Shown one piece after another: positions 35,601-38,600 of a stretch of 64,000 nucleotides of DNA. Made by a program: the position numbers. The stretch comes from Escherichia coli (GTDB taxonomy: Bacteria; Pseudomonadota; Gammaproteobacteria; Enterobacterales; Enterobacteriaceae). The first letter of the stretch is position 1, and every line of letters begins with the position of its first letter. Location: assembly GCF_030013205.1 (NCBI RefSeq), contig NZ_CP122648.1; one strand, 5' to 3'.

Positions 35601-38600
35601 ATGATTTGACGGTCAAAGTTATGATCATCGCTGATGGTGACTGTAACCGTCCCGTTTGGTGTTTCCGTATTACCCCACGTACCAGCCTGTTTCGGGAATG
35701 ATTTGGATACAGCTTTAACGAAGTCACCTCTGACCTGAGTCGCCTCCAGCATGCCCTTAATCGTACAGTTTTCATTTACCGTGACATTGTTGAGCGTCCC
35801 GGCGTTCGCATTCACACTGCCACTGATATCCGCATTTTTAGCGGTCAGCTTTCCGTCCGGTGTCAGGGAAAATGCCGGCGGATTTCCACCGCTGGTAATG
35901 GTGGGAGCCGTCAGGCGTTTCAGGAACACGTCATTCATGAATATCTGATCACCCTGACCAACAAACATCGGTTTTGTGTTGCCATTTGCAGGATTAATCA
36001 TCGCAATCCTGTCCGCCGCCAGCAGCACCTGACTCTGCATGCCGTCAGGGGTGTTCTCAATACCGGCACCGATACCCGCAATATAAAGGCGTCCGTCCTG
36101 CATCTGCTGCAGCTTCACTGCCCACATGCTGTTCAGGTTATTATTTGTATCAACCTGAACCTTCTGTATCTGCTGGATCGCTGCACTCTGGTCTTCCAGT
36201 TTCTTATTGACGGTCTGTGTTATTTCATTGCTGACATCCGTTATGGACGTCCTGATTTCAGTCAGGTCAGGCGCAAGCTGACCGTTATCAATCTGCGTCC
36301 ACAGCTCCTGAGCCAGATGGGTTTTCCCTATCTCGCCTTTGAAAAAATCCAGATAGCCTGATGCATCATCACTCGGCTGACCGACAGCCTCCACGAATGC
36401 CGATTTGCCAACGGTGTTCACACTGCGAACGTAAAAATAATAATCATGGCCCGGTTTGATATTGATACTGGCGGCTATCCAGTACAGCGCCGTGCCAAGA
36501 TAGCGTGCTGTGGTTTCAACCTGCCTGATATCCGCAATCCGCTTTTCCGAGAACCAGAACTCAAACTGTACCGTCGGATCATAAACCGCAAGATGCGGCG
36601 TGGCGGTTATCTGAAAATAGCCCGGCGTCAGCTCAATCCGCGACGGCGCTGCCGGTGCGGCAATCCGGAACGATACCGACGCCGGATCTCCCTGCTGCCC
36701 CCACGCATTTACCGCCCGGACTGTCAGCCTGTAGTTCCCCAGCGCCAGTTGCGTGAAGCGGTATGTGGTTTCCGTCGTCCGGGCCGTGCTGACCAGCCGC
36801 TCACTGCCGTCGTCCGCTGTTACGGTCAGACGGAGCAGGAAGCTCACGCCCTTCACCACCTTCGGCGTGTCCCAGCGCGCCAGCACCTGATATTCCCCGC
36901 TGTCTGCAGTGACTTCTGCGGTCAGGTGCTGCACCGCTGGCGGCGTGACACCATTCACCGTGCCGCTCTGGTCACCGTCAAAGTGCGCCCCGTTATCCAC
37001 GATGGCTTCTTTCTCCGGTACATGCTGCACGGCGGTGATGGCATACGTGCCGTCATCGTTCTCACGGATACTCACGCACCCGCATATACTGAGCAACGGC
37101 ATCAGCAACCCGCATTCGTCTCGGTGCGCGAAGGATATAACCTGAATCGGTTCGTGCTGCCTTTGCGGTTTCCTGATTCAGCATTACTCCTCCTGCTGTA
37201 ATTCCTCCTCATCATCCGCACCTGCTTCAGTCACCCGCAGGGCTATCTGATCGCGAAGATCATCAATAATGGACTGAACACGGCTCACAGCGGCAGGCTG
37301 CAGACCGCAGTCACGTTCAAGAATATCCGGTAATGTCTCCAGCACCTGCACGACCGCTTTTGCCCAGATGGCAAACTCCCGTCTGACATCACTGGCCGGA
37401 ATGAGTTGTGCCGTTTCCTGTTCGAACTTAAGACGCTCACGTTCAGACTGATACCAGGCTTTGCGCTCATGCGCGTCCATTTCGCCTTCTGCAACCGGCG
37501 GTGGTAATGCCAGAAATGCCGACACAATATCAACCACCCGATAAAGCTTGAGGTTGCTTTCATGCCCCCCTGCAACGGGTAGATTTTGCAGCCTTGCCGC
37601 AGCAGTCTGGCGATGTACACCTGACAATGCCGCCAGTTGACTGATATTCAGCGTCAGATTTTTTAACTCTCGATCCATACCCGCTCCAGAATGTTTTAAA
37701 CATGCATCTTGCGAACAACTTTAGGCAAACGGTGTTAGTGATGAACAAAAAACAATCAGAATCGACACCATAAAAATAAAATCACTGTAATATCAATCAA
37801 TTACAGTGGTGGTGATGACGAATAAAATTTCAAAAACTAGCCTTTTTCCGCGACGCTCCCGCCCCGTGGCAAGGCCACCCCACCGGGAGGACCCATGAAA
37901 AATGAGAGCAATTATCATTTATGCTCAATTAAACATCAGCATTATCGCAGCCCCTCACTGAAGGACTGCTGTAATGCTGATTGTTCAACATCAAAAAACC
38001 CAATCTGTTGCAAGTTATAAAAGCAACAAACGACATTGCGCGTTAAGATTTTCTTAATATTTAAGAAATATATTTTTTAATCTCATTTATTTTTGCAAAA
38101 GACTTTTCATATGCAGCGTCGAGAAATAAAGAAAATTACTTATTTAATCACTTTGATTTTAACTACTCTTTTGTTTGTTTATTTTTTAAGAACACCCACC
38201 ACAATCAATATGAAACAGGCGCATAAAATAAATCAACAACACCAGACAATTTTCCTTATCCGTCACGGTGAACGATGTGACAGAAGCAAAAATGCATGTC
38301 TCTCAAGCAATAAAGGAATTACCGTCAATGGTGCCATTAAAGCTCGTGATTATGGAAAAATATTTAGCAATACTTTCCCGTCATTCAGCCTTTACTCCAC
38401 GGATACCATACGGACAATGCAGACAGCCTGTTTTTTCTCTGGAGGAAAAGCAGCCTCCCGGATACCGTTGGCTGCAACATGTGGACTTGATGCTGCAAAG
38501 AACATACTCAAATTGTCATCCGATAATAAAACTACCGTTATATTCACCCATAATCATTGCCTGACACAAATAGCAAAAAAAATGAAATGGTGGAAGTTAA

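What the first reader, a model, noticed from the sequence alone, without database searches (positions are those of the whole stretch)
37108..37184. Deletion junction fusing the terminase-small-subunit-like gene to the 3' half of J
The terminase-small-subunit-like gene is followed after a 75-bp gap by an ORF equal to only the C-terminal roughly 600 aa of a J-like protein. The large terminase, portal, head and most tail genes are therefore missing, and O/P-type replication genes are also absent, with rusA truncated. The prophage cannot form particles, yet keeps int, xis, cI, cro, lysis genes and all the cargo modules, consistent with selection for cargo rather than phage function.
Basis: partly seen in the sequence, partly recalled or inferred. 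Interest (0 to 1): 0.3.

Follow-up and report, generated by a model that had tools for sequence, protein, structure and literature searches.

The report
Prophage deletion joint at fragile site
The flagged spot is a real deletion scar that removed the head and most tail genes of an E. coli prophage, and its terminase-side break lies at one exact nucleotide where dozens of independent rearrangements in related prophages also break.

Summary
The window is a lambdoid (mEp460/Gifsy-2-type) prophage of swine ETEC, between prfC and yjjG.

The "75-bp gap" is not a spacer. It is part of the first 108 nt (36 codons) of the large-terminase gene (terL). The joint is at 37076-37078, a 3-nt microhomology, where terL nt 108 meets gpJ codon 573.

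About 16 kb is missing relative to an intact relative. 3.3 kb is missing relative to a sister strain that carries a different, smaller deletion. The 603-aa ORF is about 10 junk codons plus 593 J residues, identical to residues 573-1165 of a 1165-aa J. NCBI's annotation pipeline (PGAP) already marks both remnants as pseudogenes, so the scar itself is ordinary prophage decay.

The terL breakpoint (coding strand GGGTG^CCCATGG) is not ordinary:
- At least 28 short fusion ORFs with different tails diverge exactly after terL residue 36. Other codons have 1-4 each.
- Partner sites are scattered from 0.9 kb to beyond the prophage end.
- Joints are enriched for TG/GGGTG microhomology.
- Two upstream deletions and a 22-nt duplication use the same site.
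- A related terL allele with a different DNA sequence shows no such peak.

The site is not cos. The cause of the fragility is unknown.

The parts
37184..37678 (-). Intact DUF1441 gene, the small terminase subunit (TerS) of mEp460/Gifsy-2-type phages. Protein WP_000373425.1.
   Evidence: Pfam DUF1441, E = 2.7e-41. PGAP annotation. Annotated as terminase small subunit in phage mEp460.
37077..37184 (-). terL 5' remnant: codons 1-36 of a 700-aa GpA-type large terminase. Its reading frame continues out of frame into J and stops at 37062-37064, giving a 40-aa ORF that ends ...YMRVREYP.
   Evidence: 100% identity to the terL 5' end of strains 219 and ETEC1701 from 37076 rightwards. PGAP pseudogene 'missing C-terminus'. 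The exact 40-aa product is on 55 contigs of the protein collection.
37076..37078 (.). Novel joint. The 3-nt microhomology GCA (coding strand TGC) is shared by the terL side and the J side. No filler bases and no IS.
   Evidence: Three-way alignment of the window with the intact J and intact terL flanks. The BLAST segments overlap at 37076-37078.
35297..37078 (-). gpJ 3' fragment (residues 573/574-1165, stop codon included). It carries the two Ig-like domains, the tail-tip domain and the receptor-binding domain. It has no native start codon.
   Evidence: 592/592 identity to ETEC1701 J residues 574-1165. Pfam domains. PGAP pseudogene 'missing N-terminus'.
37079..37108 (-). Spurious 5' extension of the mechanical 603-aa ORF. 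The TTG start and ~10 codons are terL sequence read in the J frame.
   Evidence: Translations in both frames.
37853..37864 (-). Inferred cosN: the 12-nt cohesive-end sequence GGGCGGGAGCGT, with lambda-like flanks ACG / CGCGG. It is retained, about 175 nt upstream of terS.
   Evidence: Sequence. Homology to the annotated cohesive end GGGCGGCGCGCT plus flank of phage LLS, and to lambda cos. Inferred by homology, not tested.
34627..35226 (-). Intact lom (Ail/Lom) gene downstream of the J fragment, followed by rearranged tail-fibre fragments.
   Evidence: PGAP annotation. Alignment to L003.
45564..45570 (.). Second deletion joint of the same prophage (ymfL side :: rusA 3' fragment), with the 7-nt microhomology CGGTTAT. 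It removes the replication region.
   Evidence: BLAST overlap and three-way alignment. PGAP 'RusA ... missing N-terminus'.

Best explanation
Window 37076-37078 is the scar of a simple, same-orientation deletion inside a lambdoid prophage. terL nt 108 was joined to gpJ codon 573 by homology-independent (illegitimate) joining across a 3-nt microhomology. That removed all head genes and most tail genes.

Shown:
- The joint, its size, the frames and the absence of any IS or filler bases.
- The terL-side break coincides with a nucleotide-precise, allele-specific fragile site (coding strand ...ATGCGGGTG^CCCATGGGGGCAGGG...).
- The same site is the fixed end of dozens of independent deletions whose other ends are scattered.
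- It is also the fixed end of at least two upstream deletions and of a 22-nt tandem duplication.

Inferred:
- A discontinuity arises repeatedly at this site. It could be a double-strand break that is blunt or has a 2-nt 5' stagger, a pair of nicks, or an arrested nascent 3' end.
- The intact 3' end ...GGGTG then pairs with a short TG/GGGTG-like match on resected or single-stranded DNA further along, and is extended and ligated.
- In the window's lineage this happened either on an intact prophage (16 kb lost) or on an already deleted ETEC1701-like prophage (3.3 kb lost).

What makes the site fragile is not established.
For: The joint:
- The window aligns colinearly to intact relatives on both sides, with a 3-nt overlap.
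- The same joint occurs in 5 complete genomes.

The hot spot:
- DNA-level joints with different partners share the terL end: K 3' end in EC19, lom in D2, lom 3' end in 14 genomes, terL nt ~985 in IMG/VR contig L032, and J in the window and in fox isolate L005.
- Of 78 short ORFs that start like terL, 28 diverge exactly after residue 36, with at least 25 different tails. Other codons between 20 and 60 have 1-4 each, a mean of 1.2, and the Poisson P is about 0.
- Between codons 100 and 240, break positions occur 1-2 times each.
- Every tail that could be mapped lies on the same strand, 0.9 to more than 19 kb downstream. One reaches host dusA.

Microhomology:
- At least 10 of 17 mapped joints have 2 or more nt of end identity to ...GGGTG, against 8.8% expected (P = 3e-7).
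- Four more joints match 2-7 nt once a terminal G/A mismatch is allowed.

The site is two-sided:
- L141 and L142 delete 268 and 358 bp upstream and keep CCCATGG... exactly.
- L148-150 duplicate the 22 nt TGCCCATGGGGGCAGGGAACTC.

Allele control:
- The LLS/mEp043-type terL reads CGC GTG CCA ATG at the site and has no Chi. It shows 0 of ~12 informative short ORFs breaking at codon 36.
Against: - The agent that makes the site fragile was not identified.
- The local hairpin is not exceptional. Folding z-scores are -1.1 to -1.7.
- No known E. coli restriction, Xer, Pin, gyrase or type IA topoisomerase motif that I could recall fits the cut. This was checked from memory only.
- The site is about 780 nt from cosN, so terminase cutting at cos does not explain it.
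- The protein survey counts ORF clusters, not phylogenetically polarised events. A few tails may be variants of one event.
- Pattern scans for joints that retain the downstream side found 0 in the viral and metagenome collections. The forward control found only 1 (viral) and 0 true joints (metagenome), so these scans had little power.
- Fox isolate L005 carries the same terL::J joint in a different mosaic context. The window's joint could therefore have been imported by recombination rather than made in situ.
Confidence: 0.85

Rival explanations
1. The 603-aa ORF is a complete, separate gene, for example a stand-alone receptor-binding protein, and not a J fragment.
For: It is an uninterrupted ORF with a possible TTG start.
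Against: The ORF is 592/592 identical to residues 574-1165 of a 1165-aa J in a sister strain. Its first ~10 codons are terL sequence in another frame. It has only the C-terminal J domains. PGAP calls it a pseudogene.
Confidence: 0.01
2. The joint is an assembly or collapse artefact.
For: Lambdoid prophages are repeated. The query region has a median of 2 and up to 13 matching places per genome.
Against: The identical joint is found in 5 closed genomes from two laboratories. The 40-aa remnant ORF is on 55 contigs from several sources.
Confidence: 0.01
3. The deletion was made by an insertion sequence (adjacent deletion) or by a site-specific recombinase (Int at a secondary att site, Pin, or Xer).
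For: One fixed end with many variable ends is the classical signature of IS-adjacent deletions. Pin invertases lie near the tail-fibre genes in some of the related prophages.
Against: No IS or foreign base is present at any of the joints I read. Partner sites share only TG/GGGTG-type microhomology and no recombinase core. The window's prophage has no pin gene.
Confidence: 0.04
4. The joint did not arise in this prophage. It was copied in by homologous recombination from another defective prophage that already carried terL'36::J573.
For: Fox isolate L005 has the same joint at a different chromosomal locus (pao), with different neighbouring modules and several SNPs in the 91 nt of J that it retains. 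The DUF1441 and J/lom flanks are near-identical among many co-resident prophages.
Against: The flanks of the window are 100% identical to sister strain ETEC1701 over 2 kb and 8.5 kb, with no imported polymorphisms. Another J joint lies only 9 nt away (P0056), which suggests the J side may also recur independently.
Confidence: 0.2
5. Cause of the hot spot, option A: a sequence-specific endonuclease cuts GGG(TG)CCC. It could be encoded by a competing phage, a defence system or a mobile element. Cut prophage copies survive only by end joining.
For: Both sides of the site are retained to the nucleotide in different events. Left ends keep ...GGGTG and right ends start (TG)CCC, as expected after fill-in of a 2-nt 5' stagger. 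There is a templated 22-nt duplication at the site. The effect is allele-specific.
Against: No candidate enzyme was found. One end is always untouched while the other is resected by kilobases, which RecBCD would not be expected to allow without end protection. No properly oriented Chi lies within 1.5 kb upstream.
Confidence: 0.3
6. Cause of the hot spot, option B: DNA synthesis arrests at the base of the imperfect hairpin CCCATGGG-N15-CCCGTGGG. A KOPS motif and a Chi site lie next to it. The arrested 3' end ...GGGTG then switches template (copy-choice recombination). A variant is Chi-limited RecBCD resection from breaks further downstream.
For: The retained end coincides exactly with the foot of the inner stem. 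The joints look like primer annealing, including tolerated terminal G/A mismatches. Chi lies 35 nt downstream, oriented to protect the terS side. The 21-kb late region has no Chi in the opposite orientation. The allele without the hot spot lacks Chi and KOPS and has weaker hairpin arms.
Against: The hairpin is unremarkable energetically. Jumps of up to 19 kb are far longer than classical slippage. The second Chi in terL (nt 612) has no comparable peak 36 nt upstream of it. The upstream deletions need a barrier acting from the other direction as well.
Confidence: 0.3

Closest known systems
Cryptic lambdoid prophages of E. coli K-12 (DLP12 nohD-aaaD'-tfaD; Qin)
   Same: A small-terminase gene plus a short 5' stump of the large-terminase gene is joined directly to tail or tail-fibre genes. 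Lysis genes and cargo genes are kept. In DLP12 the gpA stump is joined to tfaD.
   Different: DLP12 has a lambda-type Nu1/A pair and its A stump is 308 nt, not the equivalent of codon 36. The window's module is DUF1441 plus mEp460-type terL. The window's breakpoint is shared to the nucleotide by many independent deletions.
Phage mEp460 / Gifsy-2 / cdtI-type packaging and head module
   Same: The DUF1441 gene and the terL stump are 99-100% identical to mEp460-type phages and to intact prophages such as that of strain 219. The cos region is lambda-like and homologous to the annotated cohesive end of phage LLS.
   Different: The window keeps only cos, terS and 36 codons of terL from this module.
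Deletion hot spots with one fixed endpoint, described for the nick site of rolling-circle origins (M13, pC194) and for the terB replication-arrest site (Michel, Ehrlich, Bierne and colleagues, 1986-1994; cited from memory, not retrieved here)
   Same: One endpoint is fixed to the nucleotide, the other endpoint varies, and there is little or no homology at the joint.
   Different: No origin, nickase or Tus-type barrier is known or detectable at the terL site. The deletions here are much longer, and the site is used from both sides.
Alternative end joining in E. coli (RecBCD- and LigA-dependent, microhomology 1-9 nt; Chayot et al. 2010; cited from memory)
   Same: Joints have 0-7 nt of microhomology and kilobase-scale loss on one side.
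   Different: In alternative end joining both ends are normally resected. Here one end is always intact.

Membership tests
Deletion derivative of a lambdoid prophage (illegitimate recombination scar) | Both flanks are colinear, in the same orientation, with an intact relative, and the intervening genes are absent. | tested here: met
   Window 34437-37078 and 37076-37894 align to L003 1339-3977 and 20001-20818. 16,023 bp are missing. Against ETEC1701, 3,316 bp are missing.
Deletion derivative of a lambdoid prophage (illegitimate recombination scar) | The joint shows only short microhomology, with no IS, no filler bases and no recombinase core. | tested here: met
   The 3-nt GCA is shared by both parents and there are no extra bases.
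gpJ tail-tip attachment protein | Full-length architecture of about 1130-1170 aa, with the N-terminal tail-tip domains followed by fn3/Ig domains and a C-terminal receptor-binding domain. | tested here: not met
   Only Ig_J, Ig_J_second, Phage_Tail_Tip and Ig_GpJ_C are present. Residues 1-572 are absent. It is a fragment, not a member gene.
GpA-type large terminase (TerL) | GpA ATPase and GpA nuclease domains in a protein of about 700 aa. | tested here: not met
   Only codons 1-36 remain, followed by 4 out-of-frame codons and a stop.
DUF1441 small terminase | Pfam PF07278 match above the gathering threshold, and position immediately upstream of terL and downstream of cos. | tested here: met
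   141 bits against a cut-off of 35. The synteny is as in mEp460 and strain 219. DNA-binding and packaging activity were not tested.
cos-site (terminase) cleavage as the origin of the break | The breakpoint coincides with cosN. | tested here: not met
   The cosN-like GGGCGGGAGCGT is at 37853-37864, about 780 nt from the joint.
IS-mediated adjacent deletion | An IS end abuts the fixed endpoint. | tested here: not met
   There is no IS at the window joint or at the D2, EC19, L005, L032, L131 or L132 joints.
Sequence-specific deletion hot spot (fragile site) | Independent events share one endpoint far more often than chance, and the effect depends on the local DNA sequence. | tested here: met
   28 of 50 fusion ORFs that break in codons 20-60 do so after codon 36. 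The divergent allele shows 0 of ~12. The independence of events rests on their distinct partner sites, not on a phylogeny.
Sequence-specific deletion hot spot (fragile site) | An identified agent: a nuclease, a replication barrier or a DNA structure. | not testable with these tools
   Only candidate features could be listed: the hairpin foot, KOPS GGGCAGGG at +7 and Chi at +36.

The most novel reading that the evidence does not exclude
The mEp460-type terL gene contains a nucleotide-precise fragile site (GGG TG^CCC ATGG). It is cut or nicked by a so far unidentified sequence-specific activity, for instance a nuclease of a competing phage, satellite or defence system. Related terL alleles escape it through synonymous changes. 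Repair by microhomology joining would then make loss of terL and the late genes the dominant, quasi-programmed route by which this very common E. coli prophage family becomes defective.
Probability: 0.3. Interest if true: 0.75.

Novelty: new variant of a known kind. Interest (0 to 1): 0.45.

Why it matters
On its own the scar is routine. It only documents that this swine-ETEC prophage cannot make particles. The prophage still carries cos, terS, lysis genes and cargo (a SLATT plus reverse-transcriptase pair, an LPS heptose-phosphate phosphatase, and a DinI-like gene at the prfC-side edge).

What could matter is the recurrent breakpoint. Prophage decay is usually modelled as random deletion filtered by selection. 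Here one exact phosphodiester bond in terL accounts for about half of all early terL disruptions seen in public data for this allele.

If a specific nuclease or replication barrier is responsible, that would be a concrete and testable mechanism of prophage domestication. It would also be a possible new form of inter-phage conflict.

There is a practical point too. Annotators and prophage-completeness tools could use the 108-nt terL stump as a diagnostic marker.

Tried and rejected
1. cos as the break site. The mEp460 GenBank record merely opens at the terS start codon. The real cos is identified upstream of terS by homology to the annotated LLS cohesive end. Rejected.
2. A pseudo-cosN at the terL site. 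The G-rich similarity is off by 5-6 nt and would give the wrong overhang polarity. Rejected as unsupported.
3. A partner-site motif 'TNACG', seen in the first three DNA joints. It vanished once about 17 joints were available, leaving only TG/GGGTG microhomology.
4. Chi alone. The second terL Chi (nt 612) has no matching peak 36 nt upstream. The breaks near codon 210 lie downstream of it.
5. A position-equivalent hot spot in the lambda-type A gene. The DLP12 aaaD stump ends at nt 308, not at the equivalent codon 40/41.
6. Scans of viral and metagenome contigs for joints that retain the downstream side found 0. The forward control found only 1 (viral) and 0 true joints (metagenome), so these were uninformative.
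7. Single-strand folding gave non-significant z-scores.
8. Literature searches ('DUF1441'; defective prophage/terminase/deletion/hotspot/microhomology; cos site/Gifsy) returned nothing describing this site.
9. Gyrase, type IA topoisomerase, XerCD/dif, F TraI nic, EcoKI/EcoBI/EcoP15I and type I-E CRISPR geometries were compared from memory only. None fitted.
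Full report
WHAT IS AT THE COORDINATES

The genes here lie on the minus strand. ORF 37184-37678 (164 aa) is a DUF1441 protein (Pfam E = 2.7e-41). This family is annotated as the small terminase subunit in phage mEp460. ORF 35297-37108 (603 aa) contains only the C-terminal domains of the tail-tip protein J: Ig_J, Ig_J_second, Phage_Tail_Tip and Ig_GpJ_C.

SOURCE AND REFERENCES

The region is 100% identical to five closed swine E. coli genomes: K_EC180 from Korea, and ETEC1748, 4067, 4069 and 4079 from Belgium. It is a lambdoid prophage between prfC and yjjG. 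PGAP already annotates a 'phage tail tip ... missing N-terminus' pseudogene and a 108-bp 'hypothetical protein ... missing C-terminus' pseudogene next to the DUF1441 gene.

Strain 219 carries an intact relative in which DUF1441 is followed by terL (700 aa), portal, a protease/capsid fusion, the tail genes, K, I and J (1165 aa), then lom.

THE JOINT

The window aligns to the intact prophage in two colinear blocks. The first is 34437-37078, matching L003 1339-3977. The second is 37076-37894, matching L003 20001-20818. The blocks overlap by 3 nt.

A three-way alignment shows the J parent matching up to 37078 and the terL parent matching from 37076. They share GCA, and there are no extra bases. 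terL therefore contributes nt 1-108 (36 codons). J contributes residues 573/574-1165, which are 592/592 identical to the J of sister strain ETEC1701.

The terL frame runs four codons into J and stops (MLNQ...YMRVREYP). J is in another frame and has no native start. The TTG at 37108 is terL sequence in the J frame.

SISTER STRAIN AND STEPWISE DECAY

ETEC1701 has the same prophage, the same site and the same cargo, and its flanks are 100% and 99.98% identical to the window. It differs in several places:
- It carries a different junction, terL nt ~814-823 joined to the 3' part of K, with I and a full-length J retained.
- It has a smaller deletion in the replication region.
- It has a different lom-stf deletion.
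- It has an IS3 insertion.

Relative to ETEC1701 the window lacks 3,316 bp. Neither state is ancestral to the other. Whether the window's deletion was nested on an ETEC1701-like intermediate or was made independently from an intact prophage cannot be decided here.

A second joint at 45564-45570 (7-nt microhomology CGGTTAT) removed the replication genes and the rusA N-terminus. An excisionase is supported only by a sub-threshold HTH_17/MerR hit.

THE UNEXPECTED PART: A RECURRENT BREAKPOINT

Unrelated prophages have the same 108-nt terL stump joined to different partners:
- the middle of lom, in frame, in the Qin prophage of dog strain D2;
- the last 78 nt of K in strain EC19;
- the 3' end of lom in 14 genomes;
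- terL nt ~985 in an IMG/VR contig;
- the same J position as the window, followed by a further J-to-lom deletion, in fox isolate L005 at another chromosomal locus.

All are compatible with one break on the coding strand...CAGTATATGCGGGTG^CCCATGGGGGCAGGG.

I then surveyed short ORFs that start like terL in the 5.8-billion-cluster protein collection. It returned 78 of them. Twenty-eight diverge exactly after residue 36, with at least 25 different tails. Most of the 11 that apparently diverge at residues 37-40 are probably the same site with chance matches. Other codons between 20 and 60 have 1-4 each. A separate family is a frameshift in the G5 run.

A second survey with the first 240 residues found break positions 108, 142, 148, 149, 150, 162, 195, 210 (twice) and 233, that is 1-2 each.

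The tails that could be mapped all lie on the same strand, downstream in the late region. They fall in terL, portal, capsid, tail, tape measure, L, J, lom and tail fibre. One lies just upstream of host dusA. The deletions therefore range from 0.9 kb to the whole late region.

NATURE OF THE JOINTS

At least 10 of 17 mapped partner flanks end in 2 or more nt identical to the terL end ...GGGTG. The matches are TG, GTG and GCGGGTG. The random expectation is 8.8% (P = 3e-7). Four further flanks match 2-7 nt if a terminal G/A mismatch is allowed. This looks like an intact 3' end that anneals and is then extended.

THE SITE IS USED FROM BOTH SIDES

- Two contigs carry small deletions (268 and 358 bp) that start inside DUF1441 after a GTG and keep CCCATGG... 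exactly.
- Another allele, found on at least 12 contigs, has a tandem duplication of the 22 nt TGCCCATGGGGGCAGGGAACTC, beginning 2 nt before the site.
- Two assemblies have contigs that end 1-2 nt from the site.

Left ends keep ...GGGTG and right ends begin (TG)CCC. This would fit a blunt break, a 2-nt 5'-staggered break, or a template discontinuity on both strands.

SEQUENCE DEPENDENCE

The LLS/mEp043-type terL allele encodes the same YMRVPMGAGNS motif. Its DNA reads CGC GTG CCA ATG GGG GCG GGA ... GAT CTG, so it has no Chi, no KOPS and weaker hairpin arms. None of its ~12 informative short ORFs breaks at codon 36. The K-12 DLP12 lambda-type A stump ends at nt 308, not at the equivalent codon. 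The hot spot therefore depends on the DNA sequence of the mEp460-type allele, not on the position in the protein.

WHAT THE SITE IS NOT

It is not cos. A lambda-like cosN (GGGCGGGAGCGT, flanked by ACG and CGCGG) lies at 37853-37864, about 175 nt upstream of terS. It is homologous to the annotated cohesive end of phage LLS.

No IS abuts any joint. The partner sites have no common core sequence.

FEATURES NEXT TO THE SITE

- The foot of an imperfect hairpin, CCCATGGG-N15-CCCGTGGG, lies at the break. Its folding z-scores are only -1.1 to -1.7.
- A KOPS motif, GGGCAGGG, lies at +7.
- A Chi site lies at +36, oriented to protect the terS side. The whole 21-kb late region has no Chi in the opposite orientation.

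I could not establish which of these, if any, causes the fragility. A specific nuclease and replication arrest with template switching are about equally plausible. Chi-limited RecBCD resection is weaker, because the second terL Chi has no analogous peak.

VERDICT

The scar as such is ordinary and already annotated as pseudogenes. 'Selection for cargo' is untested. It is not needed to explain where the deletion starts, because the terL end sits on a strong mutational hot spot. I found no description of that hot spot in three literature searches. It is the only part of this finding that deserves follow-up.

Noticed in passing
window 37853-37864 (-), context 37800-37900: A lambda-like cos site (GGGCGGGAGCGT, with flanks like those of lambda and phage LLS) is retained together with an intact terS gene. 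The ~24.5-kb defective prophage might still be recognised by the terminase of an mEp460-type helper phage.
   Followed up: partly
window 45564-45570: A second deletion joint (7-nt microhomology CGGTTAT) joins the ymfL side to the last 186 nt of rusA. Sister strain ETEC1701 has a smaller, different deletion in the same region.
   Followed up: partly
window 34440-35014, against L004 14077-14620: The lom-stf region carries different, overlapping deletions in the window (lom intact, stf N-terminal stub) and in ETEC1701 (lom truncated, longer stf). Neither prophage state is ancestral to the other.
   Followed up: partly
window 29419-31317 (+): A SLATT-domain gene overlaps a 458-aa reverse-transcriptase gene. 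This retron- or DRT-like defence pair is cargo at the tail-fibre end of the prophage, beside a DinI-like gene (28948-29196).
   Followed up: no
window 38111-38686 (+): A gene for an LPS core heptose(II)-phosphate phosphatase (Ais/PmrG-like) sits on the opposite strand between the lysis cassette and cos. A tRNA-Gly lies at about 40254-40328 inside the prophage.
   Followed up: no
window 23373-23866: About five tandem copies of a ~101-bp unit lie in the host yjjW-yjjV intergenic region. They appeared as staggered self-hits in BLAST.
   Followed up: no
L148:2868-3060, L149:2323-2515, L150:916-1108: A 22-nt tandem duplication (TGCCCATGGGGGCAGGGAACTC) begins 2 nt before the terL hot-spot site and frameshifts terL. 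It is present on at least 12 contigs.
   Followed up: partly
L141:3870-4030 and L142:3870-4030: Deletions of 268 bp and 358 bp run from inside the DUF1441 gene to the terL hot-spot site. They retain CCCATGG... exactly, which shows that the site is used from both sides.
   Followed up: partly
terL codons 39-44 (proteins P0012, P0019, P0021, P0022, P0024, P0026, P0027, P0032): A recurrent frameshift family (tail ...TQSRGIRWWHRMLLSR) arises in the G5 run 6-10 nt after the hot-spot site.
   Followed up: no
terL codons 148-150 and 210; tail-assembly gene I 5' region (proteins P0095, P0097, P0149, P0150, P0153): Minor clusters of other terL break positions. Three independent fusions land within about 20 codons of one another in gene I (tails ...VRI(A/S)GRDAGE(T/N)ELSARLNEPLA), which suggests that partner-side hot regions also exist.
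   Followed up: no
L137:677-1000: In one assembly the terL stump is joined about 116 nt upstream of host dusA. A deletion from the hot spot therefore removed everything up to the prophage-host boundary.
   Followed up: no
window 50042-50046, against L004 34503-35833: ETEC1701 has an IS3-family insertion here that the window lacks. In K_EC180 the adjacent DUF4365 gene is annotated as a shorter (399-bp) gene, although the window has the full 339-aa ORF.
   Followed up: no
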